Shown here: piece by piece, positions 871 through 15,219 of the stretch
Numbering within the stretch: position 1 is the first letter of the stretch
Layout of the letters: every line of letters starts with the position of its first letter
Assembly: GCA_026413945.1 (NCBI GenBank)
Contig: JAOAJX010000002.1
Location: forward strand, 123,090 to 187,089
Origin: Candidatus Iainarchaeum sp.
GTDB lineage: Archaea > Iainarchaeota > Iainarchaeia > Iainarchaeales > DTGL01
Reading direction: 5' to 3'
DNA: 64,000 nt
Made by a program: the position numbers and the translations under genes
The notes under the pieces: generated by a model
The model's database searches: none
Told to the model about the DNA's origin: nothing
The model's input: the letters and a program-made list of their open reading frames with translations, nothing else

Positions 871-3240
871 GTGATCTATATGAAAAGCCGAGGCATACTG
901 TTGCTTATACTTACAACTTATTTAATGAGCAGCTGCTATGCAATAGTAGAAAATGGAAGCATTCCAATCTTTGCAGTAGTAGAATCTGAAACCTCCGCTG
1001 TGAAAGCTGAGCTCAACATAAGCATAGTGCCAGGAAATGGCAGAATATGGAGTTCTGTTGGGCCTCTTATAGGGACTTCAACACAGCACACTGAGAAAGT
1101 AGCAGTGAATGTTGCAAGAAACTATTCAAAGGATGTTAATAAATATGACTATATGTTTGACATAAAATCCGATGCAAGCGTTGTTGAGGGACCAAGCGCT
1201 GGTGCAGCAATGGCTCTTTTGCTTATTTCAATGCTTCAAGACAAAAAGCTACCAAACTATGTTTCCATAACAGGCCAAATATATGAAGATGGCACGGTGG
1301 GCTCTGTTGGCGGCGTTTACCTAAAAGCTCAGAAAGCACATGAATCAGGCATAAAGCTTTTCCTCATACCAAAAGGTGATGCTTACCAGACACACATGTT
1401 TCCAGATGGGATAAAAACAGTGAACCTTGTCGAGTATGCCCCAAAAAATTGGGGCCTAGTAGTAGTTGAGGTTTCAGATATAGATGAAGCATTAAAATAT
1501 GCATTTATGGATCTCAGCGAAATAGACGTTAATACAAAAATAAAGGAACAAGAGCCGTTTGCTCCACAAATGAAAGTTTTAAAGGACAAAATGAAGCCAA
1601 TGAAAGAGCTAACAAAAAAATACATAGGTAATTGCAAGGAAGAGATTAAAGAAGCAAAAGCTGCACTGAATGAGATTTCCAACCCAGATATGGAAGTAAT
1701 GACTGCATTGCTTGAATCTATTACAAACGCTGAAAAACTTATGAAAGACGCTAACATGCTTTATGAGGCTAATTATTTATATTCGGCAGCCAACAATGCA
1801 TTTCTTTCGTGTGTCTATGCTGGCTTTGTCAAAGATGTCGCAAAAAATCTATCTCTATTGGAATCAGATTCAAGTACAATAACATTCTTGAAAGAAGAAT
1901 TGATGGAAAAAGTCCAGGAAAGAAAAAATGTTTTAGAAAGCTTTTATACTTTGGAGAGAAGCGACTGGCTTATTGCTGCAAAGCAAAGAATACTGTGGGC
2001 AGAAACTAGCTTGAAAGGCATGGAAAGTAGGTTAACAACTATTGAGAAGCTAAAGGACTATGAGTTCGCTGCCGGATGGTATAAGATTTCAGGTGATTTC
2101 TACAATATCGCACTCTCAGCAAAAGACAAGTTCACGGCAAAGCCGAACCTAAAAGAAATTGCAAGAAAAAAGATAATAGAGGCTGAAAACTGCTACGCAA
2201 AGCTTTCTGAAAAGGACGATGACATTGAGAGGCGCATAAAGTCTGCAAAAGCTGGCATTGAAATTGGCTGGCATGATTCTGCAATAATGGATGCTGCAAG
2301 CGCATACAGCCTATGCAAATCACTTGATGAAATTGGCAAGAAAGGCCTTTCTGAAATAAAAGCAATGATTGAAGAAAAAAATAAAGAAGTTTACGATGAA
2401 ATAAGCAAAGATAATTTACAAGTATGGGCTGAGCTTTATCTTGACCATTCAGAATACTTCAAAAAGGCAGCTGATTATTACCAAGCGGAAGGAATGAATT
2501 CTAAAGCAATAGATAATGCAAAGGCAGCGCTGAGTTTAGCTTATCTTGCAGAACACACATTCAATTCATCCAAAGAAATAATCAAAGCTCTCCAAGAAGC
2601 CGATAAAAAAGAGCTTACAATAAAGCTGCCGCCTGCGGAAAACACAAAAAGCCAAACACCCGCCACAAACACTGGCCAACAGGGCAATGGCAAAGAAAAT
2701 AGCGATAAAAGCAATGAATCAGCAGTGGCTTACATTTATATCTTGGCTGCTATTGCGGTTGTTGCAATTTTAATAATGGCTTCAATTTTTTTGCTGCATA
2801 GGGCTGAGCTAAAAAGACATCCTATAAAAAAGCACTTAAAAAGAAAGATTGCGAAGCTTGAAGAAGAACTAACAAAAATAAACAAACTGCATGCGAGAGG
2901 CAAAATAAATTCAGAAGAATATGCTGCAAAAAAAGCAGAGTATGAAAAGCAAATAACCAATTTGAAGAATGAGATTTCAAAATATTCAAAAAAACTTGTT
3001 GAGCTTGACAGGCAAGTTGGAGAAATGAAAGGCCTTGTTGCTGCTTTAGAACAGATAAGGTACCACTATTCAAAAGGCGAGATAACTGACGAAGATTACA
3101 ACAAATTTGTTGAAGATTATAATGCAAAGATAGAAAAACTTAAGATGCACATAAAGAATGCTTCAGAACTTGCTGAAGAGCTACAAAAAAGCAGAGGAGA
3201 AAGTGAGCCAAAAAAGCAGAGGAAAAATAAAGGGAATTGA
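871..3240 (+). CDS. Membrane-anchored S16 (Lon-proteolytic-domain) serine protease without an AAA domain
   Basis: Signal peptide; EGPSAG catalytic Ser; GTVGSVGGVYLKA catalytic Lys; late TM helix; C-terminal coiled coil. ATG at 880 is an alternative start. Confidence 0.85.
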   Translation: MIYMKSRGILLLILTTYLMSSCYAIVENGSIPIFAVVESETSAVKAELNISIVPGNGRIWSSVGPLIGTSTQHTEKVAVNVARNYSKDVNKYDYMFDIKSDASVVEGPSAGAAMALLLISMLQDKKLPNYVSITGQIYEDGTVGSVGGVYLKAQKAHESGIKLFLIPKGDAYQTHMFPDGIKTVNLVEYAPKNWGLVVVEVSDIDEALKYAFMDLSEIDVNTKIKEQEPFAPQMKVLKDKMKPMKELTKKYIGNCKEEIKEAKAALNEISNPDMEVMTALLESITNAEKLMKDANMLYEANYLYSAANNAFLSCVYAGFVKDVAKNLSLLESDSSTITFLKEELMEKVQERKNVLESFYTLERSDWLIAAKQRILWAETSLKGMESRLTTIEKLKDYEFAAGWYKISGDFYNIALSAKDKFTAKPNLKEIARKKIIEAENCYAKLSEKDDDIERRIKSAKAGIEIGWHDSAIMDAASAYSLCKSLDEIGKKGLSEIKAMIEEKNKEVYDEISKDNLQVWAELYLDHSEYFKKAADYYQAEGMNSKAIDNAKAALSLAYLAEHTFNSSKEIIKALQEADKKELTIKLPPAENTKSQTPATNTGQQGNGKENSDKSNESAVAYIYILAAIAVVAILIMASIFLLHRAELKRHPIKKHLKRKIAKLEEELTKINKLHARGKINSEEYAAKKAEYEKQITNLKNEISKYSKKLVELDRQVGEMKGLVAALEQIRYHYSKGEITDEDYNKFVEDYNAKIEKLKMHIKNASELAEELQKSRGESEPKKQRKNKGN

Positions 3241-3242
3241 GG

Positions 3243-6194
3243 CTATTGTTGAGCCACATCTGAAAGATGTTTTGTGAGATCAAGGCCGACTATTTGAGAT
3301 CCTGATTTTGTAAGGGTAACTCCTAACACTTGCATCGCATATCTTACAACCACATTGTTGTGAGTAATAACTATTATATGCGACTTCTTAGACAACTCTT
3401 CTAAAACCTTGCTAACCTTTATTGAATTTACCTCGTCCAATGCAGCATCCGTTTCGTCCAAAAAATAAAGGGGTGCAGGCGCATACAAGAGTATTGCAAA
3501 AATGAAGGCCAGTGCTGTTAGGGTTTTTTCTCCGCCGCTCATCGCATCTATTGACTGTAAATTTTCTTTGTGCCTTGCTTCAATTATTAGACCAGCTTTA
3601 CTAATATCTTCGTAGTCTGTCAGACTAAGCTTGCCCGTGCCACCAAAAAAGTTGTAAAACATGTCAGAGAAGTTCTTGTTTATCTTCTCAAAGCAATCCA
3701 TGAATATTTCTTTCTTCCTGATCTCTATTTTTTGAATCATATCAATCACTGCTTTTTGTTCCTCTTCAAGCTTCTCTATCTTGGACTTGACTTCCAGAAG
3801 AAGTTCTTCTTCTTCCCTTACAGCTTCGCTTGCCCTAAGATTAACTGCACCAATTGTATTTAATTCACGATCAACGTCAGATAACATTTTTTTCATATCC
3901 TTAATTGGAACATCCTCTATGATTTGTGTCTTTGGAATCTCTTTTAGCTCTTCTTCAAGGTCTGCTAAACGCACTTCTGCTTTGCCAATTTCAATCCTTA
4001 TTTCGTTGCTTTCGCGTTCTGCTTTAACTGAATCTGCTTCAACAAGGTTGAGCTCTGTCTTAAGCTTTTGAATCAGGCCTAAGAGACCTTCTTTCTCCTC
4101 AAGAAGTGAAGCTATCTGTTCACTCCTCTTAAGCTTCTTCTCCTCTATCTTGGCAAGTTCTTTTTTGAGGCTTTCTAATGCCTTTGTTTTTTCCTCTTTT
4201 TGCTTGTTGAGCTGTTGCTTTTCAGATGAAAGCTCATTGATGCGAGCTCTTAAGGTCGCAATCCTTTCAGCAATATTCTCTATGTTAACTTCAGAAACAC
4301 GCAAATTGCTTTCAAGAGTTGAAAGCTGGTCTTTTAATTCGGCTAGCTGTGAATATTTATCATCATAGCTAAAGTCTGAAAGCTCATCAAGAAGTTCTCT
4401 TTTTTCCGTACGGATTCTGTTAAGAGAAGATATCTTCTGTTCAAGAGCTGATATTTCGCCTGAAAGTACTTTAAGATCCTTTATGCTTCTTTTTTCCTCT
4501 TCTATTTTGAGTTTTATTTCATCTACTCTCTTAATCTCTTTTTCCTTGGCTTGCAATTCTTGAGATATTTTTGAAAGCTTACCTAACTCTAATTCGGTTT
4601 CCTTTATCTTATTTCGAATCTCTTTGAGGTTTTCTACGATAGATGCTTTTTGCATTTCAGAATTTTTCAATTCCTTAAGCTTTTTTTCATGGAGTTTTTT
4701 CTTTCTTTCTGGGTTTATATTGCTGTCACAAATAGGGCATTTTGCTGATGCGCTCTCTATGCTAACAATTGCCTCTTTTAGCTGATTTATAAGCCCGGTC
4801 TGCAATCCATCTTTGGTTAAGAGATCTCTCTCAAGTTCCTTTAGCTTTTTTAGCTTTTCCTCTAAAGATTTGGATTCAAGAACATTCAATTGCTCTTTAA
4901 GATTTGAAATAGATGTTCTTAGCTGATCACAATCTGTTAATTCAGCAGATAGCTCTTTTATTCTCTTTTCCCTTAAGTCATTTTCACCTTTTATTTCTCC
5001 AAATTCTTTTTGCTTTGTCTTTATTGTGTCTTGCAGATTTTCTATCTCTTGCTCAATTGAACGTATTTCTTCCTCAATTTCTGCCTTTCGCAAAGAAAGT
5101 GCCTCACTATCTTTCTTCTTTTGCTGAATTTCGCTTTCCATGGAGTTTATTATCGAATTCTGCTCTTCAATCTCAAGCCTTATTGCCTCTATTTGCTGTT
5201 GCTCTTCTTCCTGCCTTCTAAGCAAGCTTTGCAGCTCTGTGGCAAGTGAGTTTTCTTGTGATTCAATTTTTCCAACTGCTTTGGAATTGGCGCTTATTAT
5301 TTCCTCCGAAACCCTTATCTCAGTTCTGAGCTCTTCTGCCTTTGCTCCAAACTCAAGATATATTTGTTGCTGTTCTTCAACAATACTCTTGCTTAATTCT
5401 TCGCTTTTCTTTTCGAATTCTGAAATTTTTTTGCTTATTGATTCTTTTTCAGATGACCTTTTAGACACTTTTTCCTGAAGTAGCCTAAGCCTTTCTTTAT
5501 TCTTTTCAATTTCCTGCTTTATAGCTTTTGCTTCGGAGTTTATTATGCTTGCCTTAAGCATATTTCTCCTTTCAACAAGGCCTTTATAGCGCTCTGCCTG
5601 CTCACGTTCCTTTTGCAGTTGCTCTAACCGCGCAAGTTTTTCTTGAAGCACGAGCTTAACATCCTTTATCCTTTCATTTACCTTATCAAGGTTAAGCTGT
5701 GCTTCTTTGCGCTTTATCTCAAATTCTTCTATGCCTGCAAGCTCATCAATTATTGTGCGCCTCTGCTCTGGATTCATCTCTATTATGCGAGTTATATCGC
5801 CTTGTGCTATAAAATTGTGCTTGCTTCTAAGCCCCAACTCTTCAACAAGTGAAACGAGCTCATTAAGCGTAACCTTCTTATCATTGATCCTGCATTCACT
5901 ACGTCCCTTGTTGTCTATAAGCCTGCTTATTAGTATCTCTTCATTATCGCGCTTAAGCTTAAGCTCAACCTTTGCATATTTTTCGGCTGAGCTGTAATTT
6001 ACAAGCTCTGTTATCTTTCCCATCCTCAAGCTTTTCATTGATGTCTCGCCGAGGACAAAAAGCATCGCATCGAGAAGATTGCTTTTTCCAGAGCCATTTG
6101 GGCCTATGATTGCGGTAAGGCCTTTTTTGAAAGGTATCTCTGCGCTTCTGAACGATTTAAAGTTCTTGAGAACGAGCTTCTTTATTTCAACCAT
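3243..6194 (-). CDS. smc: SMC-family ATPase with Smc-type heads and a central CPIC zinc hook instead of a hinge
   Basis: Walker A GPNGSGKSN; FIAQGDITRII Q-loop; MSGGEKTL signature; LDETDAALD Walker B/D-loop; long coiled coils; CPIC at aa 486-489. Confidence 0.85.
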   Translation of the reverse strand: MVEIKKLVLKNFKSFRSAEIPFKKGLTAIIGPNGSGKSNLLDAMLFVLGETSMKSLRMGKITELVNYSSAEKYAKVELKLKRDNEEILISRLIDNKGRSECRINDKKVTLNELVSLVEELGLRSKHNFIAQGDITRIIEMNPEQRRTIIDELAGIEEFEIKRKEAQLNLDKVNERIKDVKLVLQEKLARLEQLQKEREQAERYKGLVERRNMLKASIINSEAKAIKQEIEKNKERLRLLQEKVSKRSSEKESISKKISEFEKKSEELSKSIVEEQQQIYLEFGAKAEELRTEIRVSEEIISANSKAVGKIESQENSLATELQSLLRRQEEEQQQIEAIRLEIEEQNSIINSMESEIQQKKKDSEALSLRKAEIEEEIRSIEQEIENLQDTIKTKQKEFGEIKGENDLREKRIKELSAELTDCDQLRTSISNLKEQLNVLESKSLEEKLKKLKELERDLLTKDGLQTGLINQLKEAIVSIESASAKCPICDSNINPERKKKLHEKKLKELKNSEMQKASIVENLKEIRNKIKETELELGKLSKISQELQAKEKEIKRVDEIKLKIEEEKRSIKDLKVLSGEISALEQKISSLNRIRTEKRELLDELSDFSYDDKYSQLAELKDQLSTLESNLRVSEVNIENIAERIATLRARINELSSEKQQLNKQKEEKTKALESLKKELAKIEEKKLKRSEQIASLLEEKEGLLGLIQKLKTELNLVEADSVKAERESNEIRIEIGKAEVRLADLEEELKEIPKTQIIEDVPIKDMKKMLSDVDRELNTIGAVNLRASEAVREEEELLLEVKSKIEKLEEEQKAVIDMIQKIEIRKKEIFMDCFEKINKNFSDMFYNFFGGTGKLSLTDYEDISKAGLIIEARHKENLQSIDAMSGGEKTLTALAFIFAILLYAPAPLYFLDETDAALDEVNSIKVSKVLEELSKKSHIIVITHNNVVVRYAMQVLGVTLTKSGSQIVGLDLTKHLSDVAQQ

Positions 6195-12291: not shown

Positions 12292-15219
12292 TCATAATGG
12301 ATTTACTACATGGCCGGCAACCGCATCAACGAAAAATCTTTTCTTAATTTTTGTCTTTGAGTTTTCAGTTATGCATTCATAAACAGGCCAATATATTTCT
12401 TTAATTGCAGTTATAACCATGCGTTTCCATATTCTTTGCAAAAGGTCGCGAACTTCGTTTTTTGTATATTTTTCTTGTTCTTTCATAAGTACTTCCGAAT
12501 TAACTAATGGCAAATCTTGAAGTGATTGGTGCAATGGATGCATTGGGCTTGGCGGCAAGTCGAAGTCTTTGCTAAGCCTATAAAGAATCATGCCTTCTTT
12601 GTTGAATATTTCCGCTAAACCAATATCACAAAGGCGCTTAAGTATTTTCTTCACACGATCCTCATCGAGGAAAGACCTTCTGCTTATGTGATATGCAGTT
12701 AGGGGCTCTGTGAGGAAATTAAGAACAAAGATTTCTTCTGCTGACAAAGAATAAAGTTCTTTTAGGCCTTTAGAATGGACAAAGCCCTTAATAAAGTGTA
12801 TGAATTCACCATTCAAAGAATTTACAAAAAGTGTTCCTTGCCTAAAGTTCTGTTCCTTTGTAAAATAATTGAACTCAACCTTGTAAAGCGGGATGTGCTT
12901 AAGATTAATCTCTAGTAGCTTCTCGGTGCTACCAAACAAGAAAAAGCCGGAAAGCTTTTTCTTTATTTTTGTTTCAATTGATTCTCTTGAAACATTTGCA
13001 GGAAAACTCAAAAGCTCAATAACGCCTTGCTGCGACACAGGCTTTTGTATTGGTTGCTCTTTTTGAGGCATTTGTTCTTGAGTTTTCAAAACTTCTTGCT
13101 GCACGGAAGGGGCTTTTGTAACATCTTCTTCTCTTTTTAATGGCCTTTGAATCTTGTCTTCAAGTACAACAAGGCCTTCCTTTTCAAGTATTGTTGCACC
13201 TTTCTTTTCAAGCTCTGCTAAAATTGCCTTCTTATCGACGCTTGAGCTGTACTTTGCATTTAGAGAGTTCAGAGTCCTAAATATTTCAGCAAGCTTTGCT
13301 TGACCATCTCTTTTAAGGCGAGACCAATACATTGAGGTTATAAGGGTTAAAACCTGCTCATTGCTCAGTGAAACTTTAGTTTCAGCTGTTTCTATCTCAC
13401 GGCCTTCGTGTTGGCTCATCCTGGGCCTTATGCGCATCACAAATCCGCGGCTTGTTTCCTCGCGCCTATCACATACAAGAGCTACACCAACAGGCAGAGT
13501 CCTTATGAAAGAACCAGTTTTATACCTATGTGGAATTATTGCTGGTGTTCTTTTATAAACTGCCTTTATATCATCGTTGAAAACAAGCTTATGCACAATT
13601 ATTATGTCAAGCTGGCTAAGAACTCTTACATCTATTGCTGATGGTTGCTGTGTAGCAAAAACAAGCGAGCATCCTGGGCGCCTTCCTTGCTTTACATATT
13701 CTATCAATGCATCGCTAGCCGCTGTCTTAATATTCCCGCTTGGTATTAGCGTATGCGCTTCATCTAATATAAGCCAAGTAGGGGGTATTTCAATCTCAAG
13801 CATTTCTTCACTTGATTCAAATCTTTTAGCAGCTTCTTTTCTTGTTGCAATTTTTCTTGCAGCGAGTGTGCGCCTTGCCAAGATTCCTATTACAAGTGCG
13901 GTAACATTATCATCCAAAAAGCTTGTGTCTATTATTGTCATTTGCCCTTCACGGCTAAGCTCTGACAAAGGCGTGCCCTGTACATCAAAAATTCCCCAAG
14001 ATTTTGATGCTTCAAATCTGCTAACTAACGCACGTATGGAATCAACCTTAAAACCCTTGTCTCTAGAACTCAAGTCAATATCGTTCTCAAGACAGAAGAT
14101 TATGTCATCAATTGAATATTCTTTGGTGCCTTTTATGCGCTCTTTGTTTACAGTCATATAGCCCTTTGCAACTTTATCAAGTGCCTTTTCTAGCAATAAG
14201 CCGGTTGGGCTAAAGCGCTCAAGCCCAAATGTAAGGCACCAGTCTTGTGCTGTAAGCATTGATGGCTTTATTGAAAATGTGGCATCATATGTGCCAGCAG
14301 GTGTTTGCTTTTCCATCCCTTTTGGTATAAAAACGACGATGTTCTCAAGACCTCTTGGTTCAAGCCCCCAGCCTTTCAAAGAAGCGAGCTCTCTTTCTTC
14401 ACGATTAGCATATCGCATGCTCCAGAATACACCAACGGGATCTACAACAATAATGCCTACATTCTTATTCTTTAATGCGAGCTCTTCAGCTATAACCCCC
14501 AAAACATAGCTTTTGCCACTGCCTCTTGCACCACATACAAAAACAACATGCGGTCCCAAGCTGTCCATCAGGATGTTCTTTTCAGGATAATTTTCTTCTG
14601 AAACCCTGCCTATAAAAAGTGCGGCTTCAGAGCCATATTTTTCAAATGTTGACTTGCTTCTGCCAATAAAGGCGTTTCCATCAGCATCCTCTAAAAAACT
14701 AAGTTTTGGAAGTATTTCAAGAGTTGGCTCGGAAACAAATATTTTACCCTCAGGAGCAGTTTCGTCAACAAAATCCTTTAAATCATCTTCGCTAGTTTCT
14801 TGCTGCTTATCGGCTGCTTCACCACCAAGTGCTTCTTTGCCACTTTCTGTTTGTTCAGACGGAAGTGTTGCCTCTGCTTTTGTTTCTTTTTTATCACTGA
14901 GCTTTCTCTTCTTTGTGCTTTGCTTACTCTTTTTATGTACCTCAATTAATTCTTCTGCAGTTTCTTGAGATGTGCTTTCCTTCTGTGCTCTGACTTGCGG
15001 AGAAGCTTTTTCTTCATCTTCAGTAGAGCTTCCTTTTGCTTCCTTGTTCTGCGGCTCCTTTGCATATATGCTTTTTTGCATCTTTTCTGATTCTTTTTTG
15101 GCTGCCTCGTTCAGCTTCTTTCTTGCTTCTTTTAGCTCATCATCAAGGCCAAAGACATCTTCAAATAAGTCTTCTTCTTTAGAATCTTTTTCAACTTCAA
15201 CCCTTTTTTCGTCAGCCAT
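12292..15219 (-). CDS. HerA/FtsK-like ATPase (DUF87) with a long charged N-terminus and C-terminal extension
   Basis: Walker A GARGSGKS; VVDPVG; Walker B LILDEAH; KQGRRPG; ATQQP. Confidence 0.88.
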   Translation of the reverse strand: MADEKRVEVEKDSKEEDLFEDVFGLDDELKEARKKLNEAAKKESEKMQKSIYAKEPQNKEAKGSSTEDEEKASPQVRAQKESTSQETAEELIEVHKKSKQSTKKRKLSDKKETKAEATLPSEQTESGKEALGGEAADKQQETSEDDLKDFVDETAPEGKIFVSEPTLEILPKLSFLEDADGNAFIGRSKSTFEKYGSEAALFIGRVSEENYPEKNILMDSLGPHVVFVCGARGSGKSYVLGVIAEELALKNKNVGIIVVDPVGVFWSMRYANREERELASLKGWGLEPRGLENIVVFIPKGMEKQTPAGTYDATFSIKPSMLTAQDWCLTFGLERFSPTGLLLEKALDKVAKGYMTVNKERIKGTKEYSIDDIIFCLENDIDLSSRDKGFKVDSIRALVSRFEASKSWGIFDVQGTPLSELSREGQMTIIDTSFLDDNVTALVIGILARRTLAARKIATRKEAAKRFESSEEMLEIEIPPTWLILDEAHTLIPSGNIKTAASDALIEYVKQGRRPGCSLVFATQQPSAIDVRVLSQLDIIIVHKLVFNDDIKAVYKRTPAIIPHRYKTGSFIRTLPVGVALVCDRREETSRGFVMRIRPRMSQHEGREIETAETKVSLSNEQVLTLITSMYWSRLKRDGQAKLAEIFRTLNSLNAKYSSSVDKKAILAELEKKGATILEKEGLVVLEDKIQRPLKREEDVTKAPSVQQEVLKTQEQMPQKEQPIQKPVSQQGVIELLSFPANVSRESIETKIKKKLSGFFLFGSTEKLLEINLKHIPLYKVEFNYFTKEQNFRQGTLFVNSLNGEFIHFIKGFVHSKGLKELYSLSAEEIFVLNFLTEPLTAYHISRRSFLDEDRVKKILKRLCDIGLAEIFNKEGMILYRLSKDFDLPPSPMHPLHQSLQDLPLVNSEVLMKEQEKYTKNEVRDLLQRIWKRMVITAIKEIYWPVYECITENSKTKIKKRFFVDAVAGHVVNPL

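What the first reader, a model, noticed from the sequence alone, without database searches (positions are those of the whole stretch)
3243..6194. Chimeric SMC: condensin-type Smc heads joined by a Rad50-type zinc hook, with no hinge
Seen: the heads carry canonical Smc signatures (DAMLFVLG..KSLR, QGDITRII..RR.IIDELAGI, GAVNLRA, LDETDAALD rather than the Rad50 LDEPT). The protein is only 983 aa, and its midpoint (nt 4728-4739, aa 486-489) is AKCPICDSNI..ERKKKL inside continuous coiled coil. Known: Smc is about 1150-1200 aa and dimerises through a globular hinge, while CXXC hooks typify Rad50/SbcC and some divergent archaeal SMC-like proteins. No scpA/scpB or mre11 lies in the window. Inference: a hinge-to-hook domain swap giving an unusual chromosome-organising ATPase.
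Basis: partly seen in the sequence, partly recalled or inferred. Interest (0 to 1): 0.85.

Follow-up and report, generated by a model that had tools for sequence, protein, structure and literature searches.

The report
Natural Smc with a zinc hook
A small-genome archaeon's only condensin-type Smc protein carries a Rad50-like zinc hook where the usual hinge should be, a natural version of a swap previously made only in the laboratory.

Summary
Window 3243-6194 (minus strand) encodes a 983-aa protein. Its heads and arms are Smc-type: SMC_prok_A scores 499.8 bits against 128 for Rad50, and the head tree splits Smc from Rad50 at 100/100. Its apex (aa 481-494, CPIC at 486-489) is a Rad50-type zinc hook. 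No hinge was detected in the protein or in the 92%-complete genome.

It is not an artefact. The same architecture occurs in 28 of 30 orthologous loci from other genomes of the same order (named relatives: Diapherotrites/Iainarchaeota). It also occurs in 88 of 249 collected database proteins, and none of the 249 has both hinge and hook. Sister orders keep the hinge.

The genome also has ScpA, ScpB and a separate Rad50 beside HerA and NurA. The protein is therefore most likely the lineage's Smc-ScpAB condensin, dimerised through zinc instead of a hinge. Arm lengths fall in two tight classes (about 335 and 241 aa) near the published Smc modes (341 and 238).

Related lineages have secondarily deleted the hook. 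Seven literature searches found only engineered hinge/hook swaps. Zinc binding and dimerisation are inferred, not shown. I rate it a new variant of a known kind, of high interest.

The parts
3243..6194 (-). Whole hook-Smc gene, 983 aa plus stop codon
   Evidence: ORF list and translation. SMC_prok_A 499.8 bits, aligned to aa 4-458 (model 2-458) and aa ~454-973 (model 645-1165, six-frame search).
5700..6194 (-). N-terminal half of the ATPase head (aa 1-165), with Walker A GPNGSGKS at aa 31-38 (nt 6081-6104) and the Q-loop QGD at aa 131-133
   Evidence: Motif positions. Strands and helices in the AF2 model. Invariant G31, N33, G36, K37, S38 and Q131 in 27 relatives.
4755..5699 (-). N-terminal strand of the coiled-coil arm (aa ~166-480)
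   Evidence: AF2 helices 155-197, 207-217, 225-440 and 444-480. Colinear with a sister-order hinge Smc: aa 1-408 align to 1-405 at 37% identity.
4713..4754 (-). Zinc-hook loop (aa 481-494) with CPIC at aa 486-489 (nt 4728-4739)
   Evidence: Both Cys are invariant in 25 of 25 hook-bearing relatives. The apex profile hits the Rad50 hook structures 1l8d and 6zff at E 2.8e-12 and 4.5e-12. The apex model matches 1l8d_B at TM 0.87/0.89 and rmsd 1.8 A.
3855..4712 (-). C-terminal strand of the coiled-coil arm (aa 495-~780)
   Evidence: AF2 helices 495-551, 554-569, 575-604 and 611-749. Aa 503-969 align to 654-1117 of the sister-order Smc at 33% identity.
3246..3854 (-). C-terminal half of the ATPase head (aa ~781-983), with the signature motif SGGE at aa 886-889 (nt 3528-3539) and Walker B LYFLDE at aa 909-914 (nt 3453-3470) followed by the D-loop TDAALD
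   Evidence: Motif positions. Invariant S886, G887, G888, E889, D913, E914, D916, A917, L919 and D920. Best PDB hits are the Smc head C-halves 5xei, 5xns and 4i99.

Best explanation
This is the organism's single Smc, the ATPase subunit of the prokaryotic condensin Smc-ScpAB. In it the globular hinge has been replaced by a Rad50-type zinc hook. Each chain folds back on itself into an antiparallel coiled-coil arm of about 335 residues, with the CPIC loop at the tip. Inferred: two chains share one Zn2+ through their four cysteines, as in Rad50. That gives the constitutive apex dimer which the hinge normally provides. The heads engage and disengage with ATP and are bridged by the kleisin ScpA with ScpB. 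The complex would then hold and extrude chromosomal DNA like ordinary Smc-ScpAB. The replacement happened once in an ancestor within one order of Iainarchaeota (Diapherotrites, DPANN) and became the norm there. Shown here: Smc identity of heads and arms, absence of a hinge, Rad50-hook identity of the apex, presence of partner genes, and phyletic pattern. Inferred: zinc binding, dimerisation, ScpA binding and function on the chromosome.
For: Smc identity:
- SMC_prok_A scores 499.8 bits against Rad50 at 128.1.
- The best-scoring PDB sequence matches are prokaryotic Smc and eukaryotic SMC chains; the first Rad50 scores 62 bits.
- Foldseek on the full model is led by condensin and Pyrococcus Smc.
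- The head tree splits Rad50 from SMC at 100/100.

No hinge:
- None in the protein.
- None in the own genome, which is 92% complete.
- In the phylum, 19 of 215 genomes have a hinge match. Only 2 of these are labelled same order; the other 17 are labelled same class.

Hook:
- CP[VIT]C (once CLVC) sits at the apex in 28 of 30 orthologous loci.
- Pfam Rad50_zn_hook hits 17 of 27 members at E<=0.1, best 3.3e-8.
- hhalign of the apex against the same order's Rad50 hooks gives 98.5% probability and E 1.8e-15. Six off-centre coiled-coil controls give at most 46.5%.
- The apex profile finds 1l8d and 6zff as top PDB hits.
- The apex model (pLDDT 90.3) matches 1l8d at TM 0.87.

Orthologous replacement:
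- The arms are colinear with a sister-order hinge Smc. Its residues 406-653, which include the hinge at 505-617, are replaced by residues 409-502 here.
- A hinge-bearing Smc (P0035, hinge 96.2 bits) is sister to the hook clade at 97/85.

Partners:
- Own ScpA scores 50.3 bits and own ScpB 109.9 bits.
- ScpA was found in 40 of 41 and ScpB in 39 of 41 genomes of the order sample.
- A separate 796-aa Rad50 with its own hook lies next to HerA and NurA.

Arm tuning:
- Among 50 distinct hook-Smcs, 46 have arms of median 335 aa (range 310.5-338) and 4 have arms of median 241 aa.
- The published Smc arm-length modes are 238 and 341 aa, with a functional period of 91 aa (PMC5344682, passages read).

Precedent:
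- An engineered B. subtilis Smc carrying the P. furiosus Rad50 hook supported normal growth (PMC5344682, passages read).
Against: - No experiment or confident dimer model shows zinc binding or apex dimerisation.
- The protein fails the full-length SMC_prok_A equivalog cut-off (499.8 against 729.4).
- Its own Pfam hook score, 17.4 bits, is below the gathering score of 24.3.
- Relatives nested inside the hook clade have deleted the roughly 25-residue hook segment and have neither hook nor hinge. The hook is therefore dispensable in some lineages, which weakens the claim that it is the essential dimer interface.
- In 3 of 41 sampled genomes of the order (G004, G031, G035) no Smc was found at all.
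- Two genomes labelled same order (G019, G151) do carry a hinge.
- Basal relationships in the head tree are unresolved, and one hook row (L048, a long branch) falls outside the starred hook clade.
- ScpA binding was not tested.
Confidence: 0.8

Rival explanations
1. The protein is the lineage's Smc, but the CPxC tip is not the constitutive dimer interface. Arm-arm and head-kleisin contacts hold the dimer together. The hook then serves another role, for example bridging separate Smc complexes or pairing with the resident Rad50 hook, or it is on its way to being lost.
For: - Hook-less, hinge-less Smcs of 905-949 aa are nested among hook forms at several places. Starred branches force at least 3 changes of the hook state.
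- These forms lack just the roughly 25-residue hook segment.
- 9 of the 10 proteins scanned, and the six hook-less proteins among the ten scanned, show no hinge or hook at E<=0.01. The exception is P0035, which has a hinge.
- The Smc hook and the order's Rad50 hooks are close in profile: 98.5% probability by hhalign.
Against: - Both Cys, the Pro and two flanking positions are conserved across lineages that are only about 31-38% identical over the whole protein.
- The hook sits exactly at the apex; the N and C arm strands are 334 and 329 aa.
- In Rad50 this motif is a dimer interface (PMC6969161, passages read).
Confidence: 0.12
2. It is not condensin but a diverged SMC-like paralogue with a repair or defence role, comparable to ASRP/ClsN, Lamassu LmuB or a Rad50 variant. 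On this view the lineage has lost true Smc.
For: - NCBI names many members only 'AAA family ATPase'.
- PADLOC gives mad3 at 168.8 bits and LmuB at 97.4 bits.
- The protein fails the SMC equivalog cut-off.
Against: - SMC models outscore every alternative by a factor of three or more.
- The arms are colinear with a sister-order Smc over 1-408 and 503-969.
- Within the SMC side of the head tree, 24 of 25 hook rows form a starred clade whose sister is a hinge-bearing Smc, while relationships to the sister-order Smcs are unresolved.
- ScpA and ScpB are retained in 40 and 39 of 41 genomes, and they would have no partner otherwise.
- The neighbours are a Lon-domain membrane protein, a membrane protein and an HTH protein, not defence or Mre11 genes.
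Confidence: 0.05
3. It is an assembly or binning chimera that joins an smc gene to a rad50 hook.
For: The genome is a metagenome-assembled draft of 21 contigs. The read check gave no usable coverage.
Against: - The same architecture is found in 28 of 30 orthologous loci from other genomes, including genomes of 1 or 2 contigs.
- It is also found in 88 of 249 collected database proteins from several sources.
- The frame is open and the arms are symmetric.
Confidence: 0.01

Closest known systems
Canonical prokaryotic Smc of Smc-ScpAB (for example Pyrococcus Smc, PDB 5xei/5xns/4i99; B. subtilis Smc)
   Same: Head sequence and fold, an arm of about 335 aa colinear with hinge-bearing Smc, ScpA and ScpB in the genome, and a single copy per genome.
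   Different: It has no hinge domain. The tip is a 14-residue CPxC loop, the protein is about 180 aa shorter, and it falls below the equivalog cut-off.
[quoted passage not shown] 2017, PMC5344682; passages read)
   Same: The same architecture: Smc heads and arms with a Rad50-type hook at the apex. The engineered protein supported normal growth and kept the periodic arm-length constraint. The natural proteins fall into two arm-length classes about 94 aa apart.
   Different: This one is natural, it is fixed across most of an archaeal order, and its hook is diverged (CPxC-E/D-S rather than CPVCG-R). Function has not been tested.
Rad50/SbcC
   Same: A CPxC hook in a helical hairpin at the coiled-coil apex, with profile and fold matches to 1l8d, 6zff and 5gox.
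   Different: The heads are not Rad50-type. No Metallophos (Mre11-type) match lies on the same contig. The genome has a separate 796-aa Rad50 next to HerA and NurA.
Archaea-specific SMC-related proteins (ASRP: ClsN, Sph1/2; Yoshinaga et al. 2022, PMC9389158; passages read)
   Same: Archaeal SMC-superfamily proteins with a zinc-hook motif at the apex.
   Different: The ASRP model scores 113.1 bits against a cut-off of 300, and its profile has 593 positions against 983 aa here. This protein scores far higher on true SMC models.
Hinge-less SMC cluster of marine Actinobacteria (Sussfeld et al. 2025, PMC12153180; passages read)
   Same: An SMC-type head and arm with no hinge.
   Different: That cluster is bacterial and explicitly lacks the CXXC motif. 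It resembles the secondarily hook-less relatives seen here more than it resembles this protein.

Membership tests
Prokaryotic Smc (Smc-ScpAB condensin) | ABC-type head with Walker A, Q-loop, signature motif and Walker B/D-loop, best matched by SMC models | tested here: met
   Motifs at aa 31-38, 131-133, 886-889 and 909-920. SMC_N 142.2 bits. SMC_prok_A 499.8 bits and SMC_prok_B 433.5 bits, against Rad50 at 128.1. PDB hits. Tree.
Prokaryotic Smc (Smc-ScpAB condensin) | Full-length score over the curated equivalog cut-off (TIGR02169, 729.4 bits) | tested here: not met
   The score is 499.8 bits. Model positions 459-644 (the hinge region) have no counterpart.
Prokaryotic Smc (Smc-ScpAB condensin) | Long antiparallel coiled-coil arm of about 340 residues | tested here: met
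   AF2 helices 225-480 and 495-749. My estimator gives arm strands of 334 and 329 aa. The published mode is 341 aa.
Prokaryotic Smc (Smc-ScpAB condensin) | Globular hinge dimerisation domain (PF06470) | tested here: not met
   No hit in the protein at E<=1 or in the genome. It is not among the 25 listed of 34 families for the 27 relatives. No globular domain appears in the model.
Prokaryotic Smc (Smc-ScpAB condensin) | Kleisin ScpA and ScpB encoded in the genome | tested here: met
   ScpA 237 aa at 50.3 bits and ScpB 177 aa at 109.9 bits, both on contig C16. In the order sample, ScpA in 40 of 41 and ScpB in 39 of 41 genomes.
Prokaryotic Smc (Smc-ScpAB condensin) | Physical binding of ScpA to the Smc head and neck; chromosome loading | not tested
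This needs biochemistry.
Rad50/SbcC | CxxC zinc hook at the coiled-coil apex | tested here: met
   CPIC at aa 486-489. The apex profile hits 1l8d, 6zff, 5gox and 9q9h. The fold matches 1l8d at TM 0.87. Zinc binding itself is not testable with these tools.
Rad50/SbcC | Rad50-type ATPase head | tested here: not met
   Rad50 PRK03918 scores 128.1 bits against a cut-off of 700. Rad50 is split from SMC at 100/100 on a branch of 2.67.
Rad50/SbcC | Partner Mre11 nuclease, usually adjacent | tested here: not met
   The four Metallophos matches lie on contigs C16, C11 and C17, none on the window's contig C14. The neighbours are a Lon-domain protein, a membrane protein and an HTH protein.
ASRP (ClsN/Sph) | Score over the NF045487 cut-off (300 bits); profile of about 590 positions | tested here: not met
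   113.1 bits; the protein is 983 aa.
Defence SMC-like proteins (Lamassu LmuB, Wadjet JetC) | Best match to the defence models, with partner genes adjacent | tested here: not met
   LmuB 97.4 bits, JetC 35.1 bits and mad3 168.8 bits, all far below the SMC models. The three neighbouring gene products scanned show no nuclease domain and match no Pfam family other than Lon_C, Birna_VP4, SHOCT, GPDPase_memb, S_layer_C and HTH_20.

The most novel reading that the evidence does not exclude
This order preserves a natural series: hinge Smc, then hook Smc, then 'bare-tip' Smc with neither hinge nor hook, all alongside retained ScpA and ScpB. If the bare-tip and hook forms are working condensins, then nature shows that neither the hinge nor any dedicated apex dimerisation domain is needed for Smc-ScpAB function. 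Only the tuned arm length would then be essential. A bolder corollary follows from the closeness of the Smc hook to the resident Rad50 hook: the two could share zinc heterotypically, physically coupling condensin to the break-repair machine.
Probability: 0.25. Interest if true: 0.88.

Novelty: new variant of a known kind. Interest (0 to 1): 0.74.

Why it matters
The hinge is treated as a defining part of SMC proteins. It has been proposed as a DNA-binding site and a DNA entry gate. Laboratory chimeras showed that a Rad50 hook can stand in for the hinge in B. subtilis Smc, and that a hinge can stand in for the hook in yeast Rad50.

This finding shows that evolution made the same swap and kept it across a whole archaeal order, while conserving the arm length to within a few residues. 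That supports the view that tuned arms, not the hinge, carry the conserved mechanics of Smc-ScpAB.

It also provides a smaller natural complex for structural and single-molecule work. And it shows that annotation pipelines miss these proteins: many are named only 'AAA family ATPase'. The nested hook-less relatives offer a direct test of whether any apex dimer domain is required.

Tried and rejected
- Dimer prediction. Two copies of aa 426-550 plus Zn were submitted. The answer was 'no answer' with a score of 0.07 and no controls were run. It is no evidence either way.
- Sequencing runs. One DNA holder was listed, a hot-springs metagenome that may be the source of the window. No RNA holder was listed.
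- Laying that run's contigs on the gene. Only two 22-base pieces of one contig were placed, so nothing can be said about coverage or joints. Recurrence in other assemblies takes its place.
- A word-indexed homologue search restricted to aa 400-580 returned only 2 proteins, because coiled-coil words saturated the candidate list.
- A separate tree for the hook was not attempted, because the segment is too short. Profile comparisons were used instead. These cannot say whether the hook was copied from the lineage's own rad50.
- My first tree labels were partly wrong. P0035 was entered as 'no hook, no hinge', but Pfam shows a hinge at 96.2 bits. The group counts printed for that label are off by this one row.
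- Defence-system and ASRP memberships were considered and rejected on scores.
The representative search listed only the best 150 of 8,214 hits at E<=1e-30. Independent hook-Smcs in other phyla are therefore not excluded.
Full report
**1. The observation.** The protein has five cysteines and one CxxC, which is CPIC at residues 486-489 (nt 4728-4739). Pfam finds SMC_N at 142.2 bits, a sub-threshold Rad50_zn_hook at 17.4 bits (cut-off 24.3, residues 469-507), and no SMC_hinge. An AlphaFold2 model built on 27 relatives has mean pLDDT 78.3 and pTM 0.41. It shows the two head halves, long helices 225-480 and 495-749, and only a 14-residue loop (481-494) between them. There is no globular central domain.

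**2. The heads and arms are Smc, not Rad50.**
- NCBIfam's SMC_prok_A scores 499.8 bits, with residues 4-458 aligned to model positions 2-458. SMC_prok_B scores 433.5 bits, with residues 499-972 aligned to 699-1180.
- The best Rad50 model scores 128.1 bits, ASRP 113.1 (cut-off 300) and arcadin-4 80.4.
- In the six-frame genome search the second half aligns to model positions 645-1165. Roughly model positions 459-644, the hinge region, have no counterpart. This is why the protein fails the full-length cut-off of 729.4 bits.
- Against all PDB sequences, the best hits are the prokaryotic Smc heads 5xei_A (279 bits), 5xns_A and 4i99_A. The first Rad50 chain scores 62 bits.
- Foldseek on the full model is led by yeast condensin Smc4 and the Pyrococcus Smc head.
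- PADLOC defence models score far lower: mad3 168.8, LmuB 97.4, JetC 35.1.

**3. The apex is a Rad50-type zinc hook.**
- I aligned the 104-residue apex windows of 25 hook-bearing relatives. Both Cys are invariant, and the Pro after the first Cys, a Leu four residues after the second Cys and a following Lys are at least 90% conserved. The consensus is A-x-C-P-V-C-E-S-x-L-x3-K-K-K-x-L-x-E-K-K.
- A profile of that alignment, searched against every PDB sequence, finds solved Rad50 hooks as its four best hits: 1l8d_A (E 2.8e-12, 50 bits), 6zff_A (4.5e-12), human 5gox_A (1e-4) and 9q9h_A (4.9e-4).
- The AlphaFold2 model of the apex has pLDDT 90.3 and pTM 0.74. Its only two Foldseek matches at E<=0.001 are the two chains of 1l8d, at TM 0.87/0.89 and rmsd 1.8 A over 102 columns. 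Generic helical hairpins such as prefoldin also reach TM about 0.8, so the fold match alone is weak. The sequence profile is the stronger evidence.
- Profile-profile comparison with the hooks of 11 Rad50 proteins from the same order gives 98.5% probability, E 1.8e-15 and a score of 79.1 over 92 columns. Six controls using coiled-coil windows shifted by 120 residues give at most 46.5% and a score of 26.5. The windows were centred on the CxxC, which favours the true pair.
- Pfam's Rad50_zn_hook hits 17 of 27 family members at E<=0.1, best 3.3e-8.

**4. It is not an artefact or a one-off.**
- The window is contig C14 of a 948,649-base draft genome of 21 contigs, 92% complete.
- All 41 genomes sampled (the genome itself and 40 relatives in the same order, 29 families) gave some match. 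In 29 of them the match was a single full-length stretch in an open frame of about 930-1060 aa, or longer where an intein is inserted. Eight had split or shorter matches. One had the gene on two contigs. In three (G004, G031, G035) only the weak Rad50 match appeared, so no Smc was found there.
- Of the 30 loci returned, 28 carry C-[PL]-x-C at the apex. Two (L045, L047) have none.
- The exhaustive representative search found 31,201 proteins at E<=0.001. Among the best 150 representatives, 29 have an apex CPxC, and all 29 rank 41st or better.
The result was 88 hook, 134 hinge and 27 neither (some of these partial). None has both hook and hinge.
- Names given by sources to the hook forms are mostly 'AAA family ATPase [Candidatus Diapherotrites archaeon]'. 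Some are named 'chromosome segregation protein (SMC)', two 'Candidatus ainarchaeum sp.', and single ones are labelled Pacearchaeota, Micrarchaeota or uncultured archaeon.
- I therefore place the organism in Iainarchaeota/Diapherotrites (DPANN) (for the lineage). This rests on the names of close homologues, not on a marker-gene tree.

**5. Where the swap happened.**
- In all 215 genomes held for the phylum, SMC_hinge was found in 19. Seventeen of these are labelled 'same class' (families f33-f37), with open frames mostly of about 1,110-1,180 aa. Only two are labelled 'same order' (G019, G151).
- Pfam confirmed the hinge in all 8 comparators scanned, and in L146 and L052.
- BLASTP against a sister-order Smc (L139, 1,135 aa) aligns residues 1-408 with 1-405 at 37% identity, and 503-969 with 654-1117 at 33%. 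So 94 residues around the hook stand in for 248 residues that contain the hinge at 505-617.
- The careful head-only tree used 83 rows, 391 columns, LG+C20 and 873 s of search. Its bootstrap had not fully settled.
  - It splits 11 Rad50 from 72 SMC rows at 100/100.
  - It recovers a starred clade (95/93) of 24 of the 25 hook rows plus 10 hook-less rows.
  - P0035 is sister to that clade at 97/85. Pfam shows that P0035 has a hinge at 96.2 bits; I had mislabelled it before that scan.
  - One hook row (L048, branch 1.04), the sister-order Smcs, G019's partial Smc, other archaea and bacteria are unresolved at the base.
  - Rows left out: L039, L042, L043, L044, L046 and L049 (uncertain start, intein-cut or partial); L137 and L148 (very long frames; an intein was confirmed in L137 only); and L057, L060, L135 and L138 (partial).
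- The simplest reading is a single hinge-to-hook replacement within the order. The root and the donor of the hook are not established.

**6. Partners.**
- The genome encodes ScpA (237 aa, PF02616 at 50.3 bits) and ScpB (177 aa, PF04079 at 109.9 bits) on contig C16.
- In the order sample, ScpA homologues were found in 40 of 41 genomes and ScpB in 39 of 41.
- A separate Rad50-like protein of 796 aa lies on contig C11, with its own hook (CPTC; Pfam hook 32.7 bits). HerA (DUF87, 105.5 bits) and NurA (40.9 bits) genes lie next to it.
- Four Metallophos matches exist in the genome and none is on the window's contig. Which of them is Mre11 was not resolved.
The genome as a whole has the full condensin set and a separate repair set.

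**7. Arm length.**
- I anchored head boundaries on B. subtilis coordinates taken from the strain names in PMC5344682 (hinge 487-684, signature Ser1090) and on its stated wild-type arm of 344 aa. With those anchors I estimated the arm as the mean of the two strands.
- Among 50 distinct hook-Smcs, 46 fall at a median of 335 aa (range 310.5-338) and 4 at a median of 241 aa (227-245). For this protein the strands are 334 and 329 aa.
- Buermann et al. report natural Smc arm-length modes of 238, 341 and 515 aa and a functional period of 91 aa. They also report that the Smc(Zh) chimera obeys the same pattern (passages read).
- The two short-arm forms included in the tree, L130 and L131, sit in different subclades, so shortening by about one period happened at least twice.
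- The estimator is my own and is approximate. The tightness of the two classes does not depend on the anchors.

**8. Mechanism.** Most likely (about 0.8) this is the lineage's Smc-ScpAB condensin, with its two chains joined at the apex by one zinc ion held by four cysteines, as in Rad50. The engineered precedent shows that such a molecule can work. Zinc binding, dimerisation, ScpA binding and chromosomal function are all inferred. The one complex-prediction job gave no verdict and counts for nothing.

The main caution is that several lineages nested in the hook clade have deleted the hook segment of about 25 residues. They show neither hook nor hinge. So the hook is not indispensable everywhere, and arm-arm or head-kleisin contacts may suffice.

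**9. Novelty.**
- Seven full-text searches (and the paper look-ups) found only three kinds of related report. None describes a natural Smc with a zinc hook.
  - Engineered swaps: PMC5344682; PMC6969161, where the MukB or BsSmc hinge replaces the Rad50 hook in yeast; and the review PMC7752040.
  - Hook-bearing ASRP proteins: PMC9389158.
  - A hinge-less actinobacterial SMC cluster that lacks CXXC: PMC12153180.
- The searched library omits most subscription-journal papers, and supplements were closed, so prior mention cannot be excluded.
- I rate it a new variant of a known kind, with interest 0.74.

Noticed in passing
Relatives: L045, L047, L132, L133; proteins P0023, P0024, P0026, P0033, P0034, P0038, P0040, P0046: Smc orthologues of 884-949 aa have neither hinge nor hook. 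An alignment shows that the hook segment of about 25 residues is simply deleted. They nest among hook forms at several places in the head tree, and their genomes keep ScpA and ScpB.
   Followed up: partly
L130 (G016, 810 aa), L131 (G036, 792 aa); proteins P0025, P0028, P0036: Short-arm hook-Smcs have arms of about 227-245 aa, roughly one published coiled-coil period (91 aa) shorter than the main class. The two placed in the tree fall in different subclades.
   Followed up: partly
L137 (G038, 1523 aa); also open frames of 1541 and 1576 aa in G028 and G037: Some orthologues carry an intein with a LAGLIDADG homing endonuclease inserted just after the Walker A region of the Smc head (Intein_splicing 103.7 bits, LAGLIDADG_3 67.4 bits in L137).
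   Followed up: partly
L134 (G014, 1082 aa): This same-order Smc has a non-coiled central region of about 100 residues that matches neither SMC_hinge nor the hook. It may be a degenerate hinge or another small domain. Its branch is long and basal.
   Followed up: no
G004, G031, G035: No Smc match was found in three genomes of the order, two of them 95-96% complete. G004 and G035 do have ScpA and ScpB. This could be an assembly gap or a real loss; it was not resolved.
   Followed up: no
window 871-3240 (+): The gene just downstream of smc on the other strand encodes a 789-aa protein. It has an N-terminal Lon_C protease domain (49.1 bits), a long helical middle, a predicted membrane helix (judged by eye) and a SHOCT-like C-terminal part. 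This is an unusual combination.
   Followed up: partly
window 12292-15219 (-): A 975-aa ORF has a lysine- and glutamate-rich N-terminal part and a P-loop (GARGSGKS), seen only in the translation. It was not scanned against any library.
   Followed up: no
L010:689-1468 (+), next to scpB on contig C16: A 259-aa P-loop protein that looks Orc1/Cdc6-like by eye ends where scpB ends, on the opposite strand. It was not scanned.
   Followed up: no
Database names: Most hook-Smcs are named only 'AAA family ATPase' by NCBI's pipeline. This is presumably because, without the hinge, they miss the SMC equivalog cut-off (499.8 against 729.4 bits for this one).
   Followed up: yes
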